DNA of 32,832 bases from Chiloscyllium plagiosum (Eukaryota): the NCBI RefSeq assembly GCF_004010195.1, contig NC_057718.1, forward strand, positions 7,174,840-7,207,671. The letters are read 5' to 3'. Shown here one piece after another: positions 1-31,935 of the stretch. The position numbers and the translations under genes were made by a program. The notes beneath the pieces are model-generated. The model was not told the origin of the DNA and searched no databases. It saw only the letters and a list, made by a program, of their open reading frames with translations. Each line of letters opens with the position of its first letter. Within the stretch, counting starts at the first letter, position 1.

Positions 1-153
1 ACTCTCTCCCCACCCCCCCCCTCCTCTAGCTTATCTCTCCACGCTTCAGGCTCTCTGCCTTTATTCCTGATGAAGGGCTTTTGCCCGAAACGTCGATTTT
101 GCCTGTCCTCGGATGCTGCCTGAATTGCTGTGCTCTTCCAGCACCACTGATCC
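1..153 (+). mobile_element. Penelope-like pseudo-LTR / short non-autonomous element carrying a hammerhead motif
   Basis: C-rich leader, HHR at 67-94, then GATTTT...GGATGCTGCCTGAATTGCTGTGCTCTTCCAGCACCACTGATCCA; 74-153 closely matches 24502-24582. Confidence 0.75.
64..97 (+). ncRNA. Minimal type I hammerhead ribozyme motif
   Basis: CTGATGA (67-73), A, stem II GGGC-TTTT-GCCC, GAAA (87-90), CGTC. Intact core with the palindromic ACGT stem III typical of PLE hammerheads. Confidence 0.8.
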
Positions 154-334
154 AGGGTCATTGACATGGTCAGGCTCCCTCAGAGCCAGTTCTCAGAGTG
201 AACAGAACCTCTGACATCCTGTTTATTTTTCTTTTTTCTCTCAGAATGTCTGACACTCCTGTTCTTTATTTTCTCTTTACACTCCTGTGTTTTTCTCTTT
301 TTTCTTTTCTTCTTTTTCTCTCTGACACTCCTAT

Positions 335-461
335 TTCTTTTTTTTCCCCTTTAAACCCCCACACTACCACCTAACCGCGGTAGTGCTTATTTTTTCCCCA
401 GCACCCATGTGGTGTGTGTGCAAGTGTGAGACACAGTGAGAGACACAAGGTGCATGAATCT
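335..461 (-). mobile_element. 3' end of a poly(A)-tailed non-LTR retroelement (L1/Tx1-like), 5'-truncated
   Basis: Reverse complement matches about 24210-24340 (GTGCAC...GTGTCTCTCACTGTGTCTCACAC...CATGGGTGCTGGGG..AAAAAATAAGCACTAC...TTAGGTGGTAGTGTGGGG); T-tract at the low end. Confidence 0.7.
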
Positions 462-574
462 ACACTCATGTTTATATCTGTCAGCCAGGGCTCCCTGATT
501 GGATCAGATTAATAGCCCCAGTCAAGGAACTCATATTCTTTGCGGTCCACCTGGCTGGTTACCATCACTACATT

Positions 575-800
575 TCCCATTTTAGACACAGATAAGGAGA
601 GATTCTTTCTCTCAGTGGATTACTATCCTGCTTGATTTCATTCTCCAAAAAGTAGGGGAGACAGAATGGATGAATGCATTTAAGGCAGAATTAAGTTGAT
701 TTTGATCATCAAGGATTGAAGAGTTGGGGCAGGGTGGCATCTCAGAAATGGCAGAGCAAGCTTGAGAGGCTGAATGGCCTCCTCCAGTTCCTATTTCTTG
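575..800 (+). mobile_element. Degraded CR1/L2-clade LINE 3' fragment
   Basis: Tail GGCAGAGCAAGCTTGAGAGGCTGAATGGCCTCCTCCAGTTCCTATTTCTT, resembling tails at 11900-11942 and (reversed) 6965-7020. Confidence 0.55.
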
Positions 801-1499
801 GGTTAGCAAGCCTGACAGGAGTAGATCTAGAAAGATCACTTCTCTATCGAACTTTGGCCAAACCCCTTTGGAGAAATGAATTCACTTTTGGGCAACATGA
901 AGTGTTAACTTTAGGAGTGGGGTGTGGTTGAAATTCACTGGAATGTTTCTGTGGCTTGGAGTGCCCAAATCATGAGAACAGGATAGACAGGTGTATACGC
1001 ACTTGGAAGATGTTCTGACGTGTTACAAAAACATAAAAGGATTCAATAGGCTAGATAAAATTAAACATTTTCCTTTGGTGGAGTGATCATAACCTCAAAA
1101 TTAGATCCAAGCCATTCAAGAGACCAGTAGCAGAATAGAAAGCAACATGAGAAGAAACTTTCTTCTGAAGTTGAGTGAGTCTTAAAAAAAGTGGCTCGTG
1201 AGATACTTGATGGTTCCAATTTTCTAAGGTTCTCTTGCTTCAGGGAAGGCCCCAATCGATACCAAATGCAACTTTTTCTTTCAAATGGGAGACAGAAAGG
1301 AGACAACTGCAGGCCATTTAGCTTAATAGCTGTGAGAGGGAAAATGCAAGCAAGGATAAATGAATGAAGTTATCACAAGACACTTCTATTCAAGGCATTC
1401 ATACAGGGTCAACACTGTTTTGTGAAAGGCAAACTATGTTTAACCAATCCTTTGGAGCTCTTTGCAAATTTGGTGTAGATTATAGAGAACCGGTGGACG

Positions 1500-3055
1500 T
1501 AGAATCATATAATCATAAAGCTGGTCAGTATAGAAACAGACATTTTGATCTAACTCGTCCTAAATTAATCTAGTCCCATTTGCCAGCATTTGACCCTCCC
1601 TCTGAACCCTTCCTGTTCATATACCCATCCAGATGACTTTTAAATGTTGCAATTATATCAGCTTCCTCTACTCTGGCAACTCATTCCATACACACATTAC
1701 CCTTTGCGTGAAAAAGTTGCCCCTTAAGTTGCCCTTTCCCCTATCACCTATGCACCCCAATCTTGGACTTCCCCACCCAAGAGAAAAGGACCGTGGCTAT
1801 TCACCCTACCCCTTATGATTTTATAAACCTCTATAAGGTCGCCCTCAGTCGCCATCGAAAATAGCCCCAGCATTTTCAGCCTCTCCCTATAGCTCGAACC
1901 CTCCAACCCTGGCAACATCCTTTTAAATCTTTTCTGAACCCTTTCAAATTTCACAACATCCTTCCTGTAGCAGGGAGACCAGAATTGTACACAGTATTCC
2001 AAAAGTGGCCTAACCAATGTCCTGTACAGCCACAACATGATCTCTCAACCCCTATACTCAATACTCTGACTAATAAAGGCAAGCACACCAAACACCCTCG
2101 TCATTATCTTGTCTACCTGTGACTCCACTTTCAAGGAGCTATGAACCTGCATTCCAAGCTCTCTTTGTTTAGCAATAGTCCCCAGGACATTACCATTAAG
2201 TGTATAAGTCCTGCCCTGATTTACCTTTCCAAAATGCAGCACCTCACATTTATCTAAATTAAACTCCATCTGCCACTCCTTCACCCATTGGATCAAGGTC
2301 CCATTGTACTGAGGTAACCTTCTTCGCTGTCCACTAGATCTGTAATTTTGGTGTCATGTGCAAACTTACTAACTATACTTCCTACGTTCACATCCAAATC
2401 ATTTATATAAATGATGAAAAGCAGTGGACCCAGCACCAATTCTTGTGGCACACCACTGGGCCACAGGTCTCCAATTTGAAAAGCAACCCTCCACCACCAC
2501 CTCCACAAACCTCCCCTGCCAGCACCCCCTCACCAACCCATTCCCCCCCAACTGGGCACCCCCACCACTCTCTGTCTTCTACCTTCGAGCCAGTTCTATG
2601 TCCAAATGGCTAGTTCTCCCTGCATTCCATGTGATTAACCTTGCTAACCAGACTACCACAAGGAACCTTGTCAAAAACCTTACTGAAATCCATATAGATC
2701 ACATCCATGGTTCTGCCCTCATCAATCCTCTTCGTTACTTCTTCAAAAAACTCAGTCAAACCAACGTCAGGCTCACTGGTCTATAGTTTTCTGGCTTTTC
2801 CTTATCACCTTTCTCAATTAGTGCCATCATGTTAGTCAAACTCCAGTCTTCCAGCACCTCAACTCTGGCCAGTGACGATACAAATGTCTCAGCAAGAGGT
2901 CCAGCAGCAAATACTTCCCTAGCTTCCCGCAAAATTCTAGGGATCACCTGATCAGGTCCCAGAGATTTATTCACCTTTTTGTGTTTTAGGATATCTAGCA
3001 CCTCCTCCTCTGTAAAAGTGACATTTTCAAGATGTCACCACTTATTTCCCCACAT
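1500..3055 (-). mobile_element. CR1-clade LINE fragment (RT to 3' end), frameshifted and internally deleted
   Basis: ORF pieces KSLGPDQVIPRILRE...NYRPVSLT, SGVPQELVLGPLLFIIYINDLD...[43 protein letters not shown]; 3' UTR towards 1500. Confidence 0.92.
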
Positions 3056-3056
3056 T

Positions 3057-30821: not shown

Positions 30822-31038
30822 CAAAGACCAAAATGACTAGAAAAGCTCAGCAGGTCTGCCAGCATCTGTGGAGAGAAATCAGTGACCCCTGCTCAGAACT
30901 AACTCAAACCAACTGGGTGATTGGAACCTAAACGTTAACTCTGCTTTCTCCCCTCAGATGCTGCCTGACCTGCTGAGCCTTTCCAGCAATTTCTGTTATT
31001 GTTTCAGATTTATAGCATTCGCAGTTCATTTGTTTTGA
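30822..31038. mobile_element. Fold-back PLE-derived element, hammerhead degenerate
   Basis: Arms AAAAGCTCAGCAGGTCTGCCAGCATCTG and CAGATGCTGCCTGACCTGCTGAGCCTTT; near-TSD AAATCTACAA / AAATCTATAA (30812-30821 and 31039-31048). Confidence 0.7.
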
Positions 31039-31059
31039 AAATCTATAATTTTTTGGAAT

Positions 31060-31330
31060 GGTACAGTGTCGCGAGGAGGAGCCTTCTCACCTCAGAGATA
31101 AAAGGCAGTAGATTAAAGTCCCACTATTCCAGCCTCCTGCTTGTCTAATTAGGCACAAAAGCCAGACTGACACTCCCGAAACAGTACCGAGGGAGTGCCG
31201 CAGTCACAGGAACAGTCTTCAGATGTGCTCAAATCGTGGTGGGGCAAAAGATGTTGTGGCAGTATTGCAAAGATGGGGAGTGGAGTTCTCCTCTGCCTCC
31301 TTTGCTGACAGTTATCCCTCCATTAACACT
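31060..31330 (+). mobile_element. Old degraded SINE-like repeat (possibly Deu-type)
   Basis: CTCACCTCAGAG...AAAGTCCCACT...CTGACACTCCCG...CAGTACCGAGGGAGTGCCGCA; related fragments near 15940-16050 and 30040-30150; family from recall. Confidence 0.4.
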
Positions 31331-31340
31331 GCAGAAATGG

Positions 31341-31489
31341 AGGAGCAAATTACTGCAGATGCTGGAATGTCCTGAAAACAAAAAAATGCTGGAGATCGCA
31401 AGGGGTCAGGCAGCATCCATGGAGAGCAAACTAATGTTTCAAGTCGAGATGACTCGTCATCAGATGTGATCTCCCACATCTTTAGTTTT
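31341..31489 (-). mobile_element. Short PLE-derived hammerhead element with 14-bp TSD (sense to PEX3 intron 1)
   Basis: Minus strand CTGATGA-C-GAGTC-ATCTC-GACTT-GAAACATT (31463-31433); CACTGCAGAAATGG at 31327-31340 and 31490-31503. Confidence 0.8.
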
Positions 31490-31556
31490 CACTGCAGAAA
31501 TGGGGTGAGCTCTGAAGAGTTGTATTCGTGAGGAGCGCGACTGGAAACATGAACTC

Positions 31557-31935
31557 TTAGCGAGTTTTGAGAAGATTTGTAGCTCAGGTTGAAGTTCTGG
31601 ATGTAAGCTTGCTCGCTAAGCTGGAAGGTTAATTTTCAGACGTTTCGTCGCCATACTAGGTAACATCTTCAGTGGGCCTCCAGACGAAGCACTGCTGATG
31701 TTTCCTGCTTTCTATTTACATGTTTGGGTTTCTTTGGGTTGGTGATATCATTTCCTGCTCTTTTTCTCGGGAGTGGTAAATAGGGGCCAAGTCAATGTGT
31801 TTATTGGTAAAGTTCCGATTGGAATGTCATGCTTCTGGGAATTCTCGTGCATGTCTCTGTTTGGCTTGTCCTAGGATGGATATGCTGTCCCAGTCGAAGT
31901 GGTGTCCTTCCTCATCCGTATGTAAGGATACTAGT
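31557..31935 (-). mobile_element. Penelope-like element 3' remnant (GIY-YIG C-terminus plus pseudo-LTR with hammerhead)
   Basis: Minus-strand translation [94 protein letters not shown] at 31674-31637. Confidence 0.88.

What the first reader, a model, noticed from the sequence alone, without database searches (positions are those of the whole stretch)
64..31676. Dense population of minimal hammerhead ribozymes carried by short TSD-flanked, often fold-back, Penelope-derived elements
Seen: about nine hammerhead-like motifs in 33 kb, at 67(+), 14542(+), 20179(+), 21609(+, core mutated), 24501(+, truncated), 25441(+), 28240(-), 31463(-) and 31672(-), plus a degenerate one at 31512(+). They fall into at least three stem II types: GGGC-N4-GCCC, GTCACC-N6-GGTGAC and G[G/A]GTC-loop-GAC. 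Different sequences keep the pairing. Several sit in non-coding 90-220 bp units with their own direct repeats (12 bp at 14406/14638, 14 bp at 20088/20267, 8 bp at 24482/24583, 14 bp at 31327/31490). Established: Penelope-like retroelements carry minimal HHRs in their pseudo-LTRs, and non-autonomous HHR retroelements (retrozymes) exist in animals. Inference: these short units are a ribozyme-bearing, SINE-like system mobilised by PLE reverse transcriptase in sharks, possibly not catalogued as such.
Basis: partly seen in the sequence, partly recalled or inferred. Interest (0 to 1): 0.8.

Follow-up and report, generated by a model that had tools for sequence, protein, structure and literature searches.

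The report
Penelope retroelement hammerhead ribozymes in shark
The motifs are real minimal hammerhead ribozymes, but they are the ordinary, already described signature of Penelope-like retrotransposons, here in a shark genome that carries well over 100,000 of them, mostly as short dead-end copies of the element's RNA leader.

Summary
Observation confirmed. The tenth, 31512(+), is chance. All four quoted target-site duplications (TSDs) are exact.

The motifs are the minimal, helix-III-less hammerheads of Penelope-like elements (PLEs) described by Cervera & De la Peña 2014. Window 1-155 and the two GTCACC-type copies are 5'-truncated 3' ends of RT/GIY-YIG elements.

The short and fold-back units show the published PLE insertion architecture: an inverted truncated copy and a 30-40-bp tail at one end (Craig 2021; Frangieh 2024).

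The density is genome-wide, not local. A generic descriptor finds 170,762 motifs against 960 for the control. One 33-mer occurs 13,061 times.

One feature I did not find in the papers I read: short units do not start at random. In position-ordered samples, 15 of 40 and about 14 of 20 copies begin at the first base of helix I. That base is the A of an initiator motif about 30 nt downstream of a TATA box (657 copies).

I read the short units as cDNAs of the element's own mRNA leader, not an independent SINE. Cleavage and expression were not shown.

The parts
1..155 (+). 3' end of a long copy of the youngest GGGC-type PLE family: 3' UTR, TATA-like TTATCT at 31-36, Inr with A63, min-HHR at 63-94 (core 67-90, predicted cut after C94), then leader up to the first RT start site at 155. 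No tail. The DNA upstream of the window is masked.
   Evidence: 36 of 40 scored genomic places are 100% identical over 1-155. The unmasked copies L006 and L007 continue upstream into GIY-YIG coding sequence.
14406..14649 (+). Fold-back unit of the GGGTC type. TSD GTTTGATCTGAA at 14406-14417 and 14638-14649. Inverted arm carrying the ~35-nt tail at 14418-14538. Direct arm with the complete HHR at 14539-14637 (core from 14542).
20088..20280 (+). Fold-back unit of an older GGGC-type subfamily. 14-bp TSD at 20088-20101 and 20267-20280. Inverted arm with tail at 20102-20174. Direct arm at 20175-20266, starting at ATTC (HHR 20179-20202, CpG-decayed to GAAACATC).
21523..21707 (+). Old, decayed GGGTC-type fold-back. 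The HHR remnant has core CTGGAGA at 21609. The limits are approximate.
   Evidence: read by eye against the family alignment.
24482..24590 (+). GGGC-type copy truncated inside the ribozyme (24501-24582, lacks CUGAUGA). 11 nt of filler at 24490-24500. 8-bp TSD TATTCTAA at 24482-24489 and 24583-24590.
25215..25559 (+). 5'-truncated 3' end of a GTCACC-type PLE (about 25225-25550). It holds the remnant of the endonuclease C-terminus, the HHR at 25441-25470, and an ATG at A9 (25447) that stays open for 35 codons to the 3' end. 9-bp TSD CAAAGTGGT at 25215 and 25551.
28116..28244 (-). Solo short GGGC-type unit with tail. It starts at ATTC (28244). The HHR at 28217-28240 is intact (ACGT palindrome, C17). 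No TSD was found.
30812..31045 (+). The direct arm has the tail and starts in the 3' strand of helix II; the CUGANGA box is absent. 7-bp candidate TSD AAATCTA.
31327..31503 (-). GAGTC-type unit. 14-bp TSD at 31327-31340 and 31490-31503. Direct arm with tail at 31341-31464 (HHR 31437-31463). A 25-nt inverted stub at 31465-31489 ends at the no-tail RT start.
31549..31963 (-). Second GTCACC-type 5'-truncated PLE end (31558-31954, HHR 31643-31672). It is truncated further upstream than the copy at 25225. Candidate 9-bp TSD ATGAACTCT.
31512..31547 (+). Not a ribozyme: a chance match to the two boxes in unique DNA (G at position 17, no helix II).

Best explanation
The window holds ten insertions from at least four families of endonuclease-bearing Penelope-like retrotransposons. 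Each insertion carries the element's minimal type I hammerhead. This motif has no helix III of its own, so it can only form an active ribozyme by pairing two copies through the palindrome ACGU.

Shown:
- The motifs and their TSDs.
- The RT/GIY-YIG coding sequence next to long copies.
- A fixed 3' end with an optional ~35-40-nt tail.
- Inverted arms.
- A 5' end of short units fixed at the first base of helix I.
- A TATA box and initiator placed so that this base is the predicted transcription start.

Inferred: the PLE mRNA starts at helix I, so the ribozyme is its 5' leader. The element's reverse transcriptase initiates at one of two internal sites about 90 and 130 nt from the cap, as was shown in vitro for the anole element. 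When it uses the 5'-proximal copy of that site, it runs off the capped end and inserts a ~95 or ~135-nt 'leader' copy. Fold-backs arise when both nicked target strands prime such cDNAs, which then join head to head. These copies lack the upstream TATA box and decay neutrally.

Not shown: that the ribozyme cleaves, and what cleavage would do for the element.
For: HHR features (literature). [quoted passage not shown] Other copies differ by CpG decay (ACAT, ATGT).

PLE identity.
- A copy of the window 1-155 sequence is preceded by ..IYCIRCSRCGLLYIGETGR...
- The 176-aa fragment is 91% identical to a carpet-shark protein.
- It is 47% identical to a 902-aa protein with RVT_1 at 394-575 and GIY-YIG at 806-886.
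- By my reading of the alignment, 27 of 29 genomic GTCACC-type copies run on upstream of the window copy's 5' end.

Tail at one end.
- 30 of 30 GGGTC-type fold-backs have it on one arm only: 28 on the inverted arm, 2 on the HHR arm.
- 15 of 15 older GGGC-type units likewise: 12 and 3.

Repeated origin of fold-backs.
- The inner junctions differ between copies.
- The two arm types have the same majority base in 82 of 83 columns.
- Arms of one unit are no more alike than arms of different units (0.85 against 0.84).

Fixed 5' end.
- Of 40 position-ordered copies of the 33-mer, 15 start at ATTC, 6 start 10-52 nt upstream and 19 are long (plus my reading).
- Of 20 position-ordered GGGTC-type copies, 8 are solo and 6-7 are fold-backs that start at (G)TT. 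4-5 are long.
- 9 of 9 GAGTC-type units start at the HHR.
- Read and contig depth steps up 3- to 12-fold at window position 61-63 in three runs.

Promoter. TATAAA-N20-32-CTGAGGAAGGGTC occurs 657 times against 0 for the control. In nearly all listed rows the spacing is 27 nt, which puts the A of TCAGTTC 29 nt after the T of TATAAA. The youngest family has TTATTCC with A63 as the first base of its short units.

Same source. Four of the five commonest leader variants occur in both long and short copies.

Layout as in the anole element. In the GTCACC type the ATG is A9-U-G of the ribozyme, and the frame is open for 35 codons to the insertion's 3' end (Frangieh 2024).
Against: No transcription start was mapped. 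The only RNA raw reads that laid were single-cell polyA reads; 98% of them ran on into unrelated sequence, and no hot spots where molecules begin or end were reported.

The TATA box is canonical only in the GGGTC type. In the youngest family it is a weak TTATCT.

Three of the six intermediate 5' ends lie 10-14 nt upstream of ATTC (L097, L123, L129). This suggests a second preferred end that I do not explain.

The inverted arm of the GGGTC type mostly ends in loop II rather than at the cap position. Simple run-off on both strands does not predict that.

The samples were chosen by similarity to the window's own short units, so they are biased towards that form. Only searches are unbiased.

Core nucleotides are only slightly better kept than the rest (0.94-0.97 against 0.90-0.93). 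No Rfam model recognises the motifs. Self-cleavage is untested.
Confidence: 0.7

Rival explanations
1. The short units are a self-propagating, non-autonomous lineage (SINE-like or retrozyme-like). They are transcribed from their own copies and mobilised in trans by PLE protein.
For: Short units have a discrete length and fixed ends, and they outnumber long copies in two families. Internally deleted, non-coding PLE derivatives with a hammerhead at each end do exist in the genome (L131, L132). A 2026 preprint argues that vertebrate retrozymes are non-autonomous PLE derivatives.
Against: Short units start downstream of the TATA box, so they do not carry it. They share leader variants with the coding copies rather than having their own. 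The two arm types have the same majority sequence and the junctions vary, which argues against a master fold-back. None of the window's units is a tandem array. No tRNA-like head was found. Copies decay at CpG sites and in the core.
Confidence: 0.12
2. The units are by-products of autonomous PLEs, but the fixed 5' end is not a transcription start. Instead the reverse transcriptase stops or switches template at the folded or dimerised ribozyme. The TATA and Inr spacing is then coincidental or serves another start.
For: The inverted arms of the GGGTC type end inside helix II, which looks like a structure-related stop. PLE RNPs are thought to be dimers, and min-HHRs need dimerisation.
Against: A polymerase reading 3' to 5' should stall before a structure, not exactly after crossing it. 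The same boundary recurs in three families with different helix II sequences. 657 copies keep TATAAA at a fixed 27-nt spacing.
Confidence: 0.15
3. The hammerhead-like boxes are chance matches or neutral relics with no ribozyme function. The repeats merely happen to contain CUGANGA and GAAA.
For: Three pattern hits in the window are chance. Rfam finds nothing. Published min-HHRs cleave poorly in vitro.
Against: Four families with unrelated helix II sequences all keep the same features: both boxes, the extra nucleotide, a paired helix II, the ACGU palindrome and a non-G at position 17. The generic descriptor gives 170,762 hits against 960 for the reversed control. The anole homologue cleaves with protein, and C3/G8 mutants behave as expected.
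Confidence: 0.03

Closest known systems
Minimal hammerhead ribozymes (min-HHRs) of metazoan Penelope-like elements (Cervera & De la Peña 2014, PMC4209133; parts 1-2 of 4 read)
   Same: No helix III or loop 3. Palindromic positions 15.2-16.2. One unpaired nucleotide between 9 and 10.1. G10.1-C11.1. A short helix I. Several consensus families per genome. Most copies are solo and were read as truncated PLEs. Pairs occur on opposite strands 100-700 bp apart.
   Different: Copy number: about 170,000 here by a crude descriptor, against about 4,000 (coelacanth) and 9,000 (Xenopus) reported there with another descriptor. In the GGGC type, helix II has 4 bp rather than the 6-8 bp described. No shark was mentioned in the parts I read.
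PLE insertion architecture: 5' truncation, pseudo-LTR, adjacent inverted 5'-truncated copy, 30-40-bp tail at one end (Craig et al. 2021, PMC8557442, passages read)
   Same: All four features are present in the window and in the genomic copies.
   Different: Here both arms are usually cut down to the ~100-nt leader. The result is a 165-220-bp fold-back with no coding sequence. The direct arm has a fixed 5' end.
Poseidon element PAc of Anolis carolinensis (Frangieh et al. 2024, PMC11167929, main text read)
   Same: [quoted passage not shown] The two alternative 3' ends are separated by the tail. A stem with an AC-rich loop lies around the 3' end. Extension from both target strands would explain the fold-backs.
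   Different: In the GGGC type both RT start sites seem to lie in the 5' UTR: L132 continues to a later ATG. None of this was tested biochemically here.
Non-LTR retrozymes of animals (Cervera & De la Peña 2020, PMC7229834, passages; Li, Clavereau & Pollet 2026 preprint 10.64898/2026.07.22.740005, abstract, Results part 1 and passages)
   Same: Non-coding units bearing a type I hammerhead and linked to PLEs. 'Monomer' copies are dispersed. One chondrichthyan genome is reported to have them.
   Different: Retrozymes are tandem repeats of 170-400 nt or more, with canonical HHRs, and are expressed as circular RNA. The window's units are single or inverted, carry min-HHRs, and no circular or small RNA was seen.
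Sm-alpha / Sj-alpha SINE-like elements of schistosomes with a hammerhead
   Same: A short interspersed retroposon that carries a hammerhead in a genome with PLEs.
   Different: As I recall, those have a Pol III-type head and a canonical HHR. Here no tRNA-like head was found, and the unit starts at a Pol II-type initiator.

Membership tests
Hammerhead ribozyme, type I, minimal PLE variant | Core boxes C3-U4-G5-A6-N7-G8-A9 and G12-A13-A14, with a non-G at position 17 | tested here: met
   Complete in 67+, 14542+, 20179+, 25441+, 28240-, 31463- and 31672-. A6 is changed to G in 21609+. The box is missing in 24501+ and in 30819-31038. 31512+ has G17 and is rejected.
Hammerhead ribozyme, type I, minimal PLE variant | Helix II closed by G10.1-C11.1, kept by different sequences; one unpaired nucleotide between 9 and 10.1 | tested here: met
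   4 bp GGGC/GCCC, 6 bp GTCACC/GGTGAC and 5 bp GAGTC/GACTT (the last closed by G-U), each after one extra nucleotide. A genomic variant GAGC/GCUC is listed. No formal covariation statistic was computed.
Hammerhead ribozyme, type I, minimal PLE variant | No helix III of its own; palindromic A15.1-C-G-U16.1 that allows a dimer | tested here: met
   ACGT in 67+, 21609+, 28240- and 31672-. ACAT or ATGT (CpG decay) in the others. The dimer folds did not reproduce the hammerhead dimer, so that test is inconclusive for folding.
Hammerhead ribozyme, type I, minimal PLE variant | Match to a curated Rfam hammerhead model | tested here: not met
   No hammerhead family at the gathering score or at E<=10. 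This is expected for motifs without helix III, but it is still a failed test.
Hammerhead ribozyme, type I, minimal PLE variant | Self-cleavage at position 17 | not testable with these tools
   One search reported no hot spot where molecules begin or end. The libraries used are not suited to show one.
Penelope-like element (EN+) | [quoted passage not shown] | tested here: met
   For the GGGC type: GIY-YIG at E 0.0057, below the Pfam cut-off; a homologue with RVT_1 plus GIY-YIG. For the GTCACC type there is only a conserved coding-like upstream stretch. For the other two types it was not shown.
Penelope-like element (EN+) | 5' truncation, partial tandems or inverted copies, tail at one end, TSDs of variable length | tested here: met
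Non-LTR retrozyme | Head-to-tail tandem repeats of a short unit, each with a hammerhead | tested here: not met
   No unit in the window is tandem. Same-strand pairs 604 and 776 bp apart elsewhere are internally deleted PLEs.
Non-LTR retrozyme | Abundant linear and circular RNA of unit length | tested here: inconclusive
   one contig joint running from 102 back to 63 in run X5, and nothing else. No suitable RNA library was available.
SINE | Internal Pol III promoter in a tRNA-, 7SL- or 5S-derived head | tested here: not met
   No tRNA-like gene in the window. No 5S, 7SL or tRNA family appears in the Rfam scan at E<=10. The units begin with the ribozyme.
SINE | A lineage of its own that shares only the 3' end with the autonomous partner | tested here: not met
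   The whole short unit is identical to the matching part of the long copies, and the leader variants are shared.

The most novel reading that the evidence does not exclude
The ~95-nt and ~135-nt units are a discrete class of PLE product that I did not find described in the papers I read. I call them 'leader retrocopies'. They run from the cap site (the first base of helix I) to one of the two internal RT start sites. They are often laid down as head-to-head pairs because both target strands prime. If so, they are a genome-scale in vivo footprint of the internal-initiation and two-strand mechanism so far seen only in vitro. They would also explain why solo min-HHRs swamp animal genomes. At about 48 intact-core motifs per Mb, this carpet-shark-like genome may be the densest known store of ribozyme motifs in a vertebrate.
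Probability: 0.45. Interest if true: 0.55.

Novelty: new member of a known kind. Interest (0 to 1): 0.4.

Why it matters
For ribozyme and transposon specialists the kind of thing is settled: PLEs carry minimal hammerheads, and their broken copies litter animal genomes.

This locus adds three things.
- A cartilaginous-fish case of extreme abundance. It includes a family with 13,061 identical 33-mers, so it may be active or recently active.
- A clean natural data set on where PLE cDNAs begin and end.
- A pointer to where the transcription start lies relative to the ribozyme.

If the start is right, the hammerhead sits at the very 5' end of the mRNA. That constrains models of what cleavage is for: it would remove a capped ~32-nt leader. 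It also makes the anole in vitro model testable against tens of thousands of natural insertions.

For genome annotation, these units should be masked as Penelope fragments. They should not be reported as new SINEs or as ribozyme genes.

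Tried and rejected
- Rfam scans at the gathering score and at E<=10 found no hammerhead. The five weak hits (snoU36a and lncRNA fragments) are noise.
- The sharp 5' limit at query position 75 looked like a SINE-type fixed head. 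The alignment with flanks showed it is only the window copy's own truncation point.
- I first read the conserved GGATGCTGCC as the ORF start of the GGGC, GGGTC and GAGTC types. L132 shows that this frame stops just after the tail and that a later ATG follows, so I dropped the idea.
- MITE or DNA-transposon origin of the fold-backs. Rejected because the TSD length varies from 7 to 19 bp, one arm has the tail, and the arms are copies of a retroelement end.
- Master fold-back element. Rejected for two families on junction variety and identical arm majorities.
- RNA evidence. No RNA holder was listed for window 1-155. Run X21 laid no reads, so it gives no test. Run X20 (single-cell polyA) gave reads that mostly ran on into other sequence. 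Runs X5 and X1 are contigs of uncertain kind. None of this shows expression, cleavage or circles, and none of it argues against them.
- MFE folds of two leader copies did not return the hammerhead dimer.
- The ungapped and local-alignment classifiers mislabelled several copies. The 19/6/15 split combines with my reading.
- Earlier notes of this scan: nothing on this genome, and one unrelated PLE note on another genome.
- Pfam on eight window ORFs gave only a sub-threshold Peroxin-3 hit.
- Literature searches found no paper on PLE hammerheads in sharks and none on leader-only PLE copies. Lünse et al. 2017 was seen only as a citation. The bioRxiv supplements that would name the chondrichthyan families were not available.

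Full report
**1. What is in the sequence**

A search for the two hammerhead boxes (CTGANGA, 6-30 nt, GAAA) gives 11 rows in the window. The expectation is 3.46 +/- 2.00, and 0 of 100 shuffles reach 11.

With their flanks, seven of the sites lie in repeated DNA and have the features of a type I hammerhead without helix III. These features are:
- CUGANGA;
- one unpaired nucleotide;
- a paired helix II of 4-6 bp;
- GAAA;
- then directly the tetranucleotide A-C-G-U;
- a non-G at position 17;
- a 2-6-bp helix I.

21609+ has the core changed to CTGGAGA. 24501+ begins at AAGGGC and so lacks the first box.

The tenth site, 31512+, is chance. It has G at position 17 and no helix II, and it lies in DNA that has no copies elsewhere in the genome.

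Rfam reports no hammerhead at the gathering score or at E<=10.

**2. What the repeats are**

The window's own genome has 3.56 Gb.

*Window 1-155.* This stretch has 36 of 40 scored matches at 100% identity, out of 900 candidates. All of them end at the same base, 155.

In the two copies whose upstream DNA is not masked (L006, L007), the sequence just upstream encodes ..IYCIRCSRCGLLYIGETGR..AQHFNSPSHS...
- This 176-aa fragment has a sub-threshold Pfam GIY-YIG match (E 0.0057).
- It is 91% identical to an uncharacterised protein of a carpet shark, and 66% and 63% identical to proteins of two other orectolobiform sharks.
- It is 47% identical to a 902-aa protein that carries RVT_1 (394-575) followed by GIY-YIG (806-886).

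That is the architecture of an endonuclease-bearing Penelope-like element (PLE). Window 1-155 is therefore the 3' end of a long PLE copy whose body lies in the masked DNA before the window.

*The two GTCACC-type copies* (about 25225-25550 and 31558-31954) are also plain truncations.
- By my reading of the alignment, 27 of 29 genomic relatives continue upstream of the window copy's 5' end into a conserved, coding-like stretch. The other two have an inverted copy there.
- The two window copies are truncated at different points.
- In this family the ATG is formed by A9 and the next two bases of the ribozyme. The frame stays open for 35 codons to the end of the insertion, about 104 nt.
- This is the layout of the anole Poseidon element. 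There the ORF starts at stem II and reverse transcription starts 111-118 nt into the ORF (Frangieh et al. 2024).

**3. The short and fold-back units**

The units at 14418-14637, 20102-20266, about 21523-21707, 30819-31038 and 31341-31489 consist of a direct arm (ribozyme plus about 70-110 nt) and an inverted arm of the same sequence. They are flanked by TSDs of 7-14 bp. The unit at 28116-28244 is a single arm.

Genomic relatives show the same plan.
- In 30 of 30 GGGTC-type units, exactly one arm carries an extra ~35-nt tail. It is on the inverted arm in 28 and on the ribozyme arm in 2.
- In 15 of 15 units of the older GGGC subfamily the split is 12 and 3.

These two samples were picked by similarity to a fold-back query, so they say nothing about how common fold-backs are.

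The plan matches what is published for PLEs: strong 5' truncation, an adjacent inverted 5'-truncated copy, and a 30-40-bp tail at only one end (Craig et al. 2021, passages). The tail is the stretch between two RT start sites, and both target strands are cut and extended in vitro (Frangieh et al. 2024).

Several results speak for fold-backs formed anew at each insertion from one kind of RNA, not for a master fold-back element.
- The inner junctions differ between copies.
- The two arm types have the same majority base in 82 of 83 shared columns.
- Arms of one unit are no more alike (0.85) than arms of different units (0.84).

**4. A non-random 5' end**

I took the first 40 genomic copies, in coordinate order, of the exact 33-mer of the window's first ribozyme. 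This sample is not biased by structure. Combining with my reading:
- 19 are long (PLE 3' UTR, coding sequence or masked DNA upstream);
- 6 start 10-52 nt upstream of ATTC;
- 15 start at ATTC itself (13 solo, 2 fold-back).

Of the 21 copies that end within 62 nt upstream, 15 fall on four positions. A uniform spread would give about 1.4.

The first 20 copies of the GGGTC-type ribozyme give a similar picture:
- 4-5 are long, with a shared upstream sequence;
- 6-7 are fold-backs;
- 8 are solo units starting at (G)TT;
- 1 is unclear.

All 9 GAGTC-type units examined start at the ribozyme.

Reads and contigs from three runs, laid on window 1-300, show a step at 61-63:
- run X20, first mate on plus strand, 17.1 to 49.2, and on minus strand, 10.8 to 130.7;
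- run X5, 11,011 to 59,596;
- run X1, 7,615 to 32,994.

The loose ends before positions 62 and 63 run into sequence that is not the window's.

In each family, the start of the short units is the first base of the 5' strand of helix I.

**5. Why I read that base as the transcription start**

Long GGGTC-type copies carry TATAAA upstream. The pattern TATAAA-N20-32-CTGAGGAAGGGTC occurs 657 times, against 0 for the reversed control.

In nearly all listed rows the spacing is 27 nt: TATAAACCAACATTTTCCTAGCTACCATCAGTT then CTGAGG. This places the A of TCAGTTC, a match to the initiator consensus YYANWYY (recalled), 29 nt after the first T of the TATA box. The short units begin there or 1-2 nt later.

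In the youngest family the same position reads TTATTCC, with A63 as the first base of the short units. A TATA-like TTATCT lies at window 31-36.

The inference is that the PLE mRNA begins with the ribozyme. A short unit is then a cDNA that started at the 5'-proximal copy of the internal RT start site and ran off the capped end.

Three points fit this.
- The leader variants are shared between long and short copies. Four of the five commonest variants occur in both classes.
- Short units would lack the TATA box.
- They show neutral decay. CpG columns keep 0.65-0.83 identity to the majority, and 2 of 9 to 12 of 30 copies per family have lost a core nucleotide. Core positions are only slightly better kept than the rest (0.94-0.97 against 0.90-0.93).

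Some things do not fit neatly.
- There is a minor cluster of 5' ends 10-14 nt upstream of ATTC (L097, L123, L129).
- The inverted arms of the GGGTC type end in loop II.
- No start site has been mapped.

**6. Abundance**

Exact-pattern counts over the whole genome, with the reversed pattern as control:

| Pattern | Count | Control |
|---|---|---|
| 33-mer of the youngest family | 13,061 | 0 |
| CTGAWGAAGGGC-N4-GCCCGAAAC | 110,558 | 0 |
| GTCACC type | 5,982 | 0 |
| GGGTC type | 2,886 | 0 |
| Generic CTGANGA-N-G-N6-16-C-GAAAC | 170,762 | 960 |

The generic count is about one motif per 21 kb. The window holds 3 by that pattern against 1.58 expected, so its density is typical of the genome.

For scale, published counts made with other descriptors are:
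- about 4,000 min-HHRs in the coelacanth and 9,000 in Xenopus;
- 126,247 canonical type I motifs in the axolotl genome, which the 2026 preprint lists at 28.21 Gbp.

The 155-nt end is also held at high identity by runs labelled with four organism codes. The family is therefore shared by relatives, or it changes very slowly.

**7. Comparison with what is known, and verdict**

The following are all in print:
- the ribozyme type, its link to PLEs, its solo and opposite-strand copies, and the reading of these as truncated PLEs;
- the insertion architecture;
- the tail mechanism;
- the idea that animal retrozymes are non-autonomous PLE derivatives, including in one chondrichthyan.

My searches found no paper on these ribozymes in sharks, and none that describes leader-only PLE copies with a fixed 5' end. 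I could not see the preprint's supplements, Repbase or Dfam.

The units fail the tests for a SINE. They have no Pol III head and no lineage of their own. They also fail the tests for a retrozyme. They are not tandem, and no circular RNA was seen.

The finding is real and well observed, but its interpretation as a new SINE-like system is not supported. It is a new, very large member of a known kind. It comes with one mechanistic lead that can be tested directly: the cap-to-RT-start 'leader' copies and their head-to-head pairs.

Noticed in passing
upstream of window position 1 (L001:1-1500) and parts of L002-L006, L008, L092, L101 and others: The DNA just before the window, and the bodies of many PLE copies elsewhere, read as N (withheld). 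As a result the coding part of the window's first element could not be read. Only L006, L007 and some short loci show it.
   Followed up: partly
window 24014-24174: A perfect tandem duplication of an 80-bp unit (2.0 copies, 100% match). It lies about 300 bp before the truncated GGGC-type unit and is unrelated to it.
   Followed up: no
window 15479-15958 (-): An open frame with a sub-threshold Pfam match to Peroxin-3 (E 0.0015, 18.1 bits against a cut-off of 27.6; profile positions 280-328). It may be an exon of a PEX3-like gene, in which case the PLE units lie in its introns.
   Followed up: no
window 1558-2192, 5946-6439, 7658-7929, 10568-10840, 12402-12943, 16081-16647, 26629-27304: At least seven copies of another interspersed repeat, 74-86% alike, on both strands. 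A second family of about 230 bp lies at 9108-9344, 11434-11751, 17735-18038, 22438-22581 and 28870-29193. Neither was identified.
   Followed up: no
L133 (G000:C1:10717500-10718500), positions 145-935: One insertion event bounded by an 11-bp TSD (TTCTGGATTAC). It holds an inverted leader arm, about 550 bp of unrelated sequence, and then a direct leader arm with tail. A PLE may have carried foreign sequence between its two arms.
   Followed up: no
L131 and L132 (G000:C1:717450-718700 and 2349350-2350750): Same-strand hammerheads 604 and 776 bp apart. They are internally deleted PLEs in partial tandem: ribozyme, tail and start of the ORF joined to the 3' UTR and a second ribozyme. These are true non-coding derivatives with a ribozyme at each end.
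   Followed up: partly
window 102 to 63, run X5 (table 5c): One contig joins position 102 back to position 63 with TGA in between (depth 27.1). This could be a head-to-tail junction of ribozyme units or an assembly artefact.
   Followed up: no
runs X1-X14: The 155-nt end is held at 0.36-0.91 of its sampled words by runs under four organism codes. The youngest family is therefore not confined to one species label.
   Followed up: partly
L097, L123, L129: A minor second cluster of 5' ends 10-14 nt upstream of ATTC, just after a CTTCAG|G that looks like a 3' splice site behind a pyrimidine tract. Its meaning is unknown.
   Followed up: no
window 13388-13473 (-): A weak Rfam match to the C/D-box snoRNA U36a (21.6 bits against a gathering score of 45; E 5.2). 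Most likely noise.
   Followed up: no
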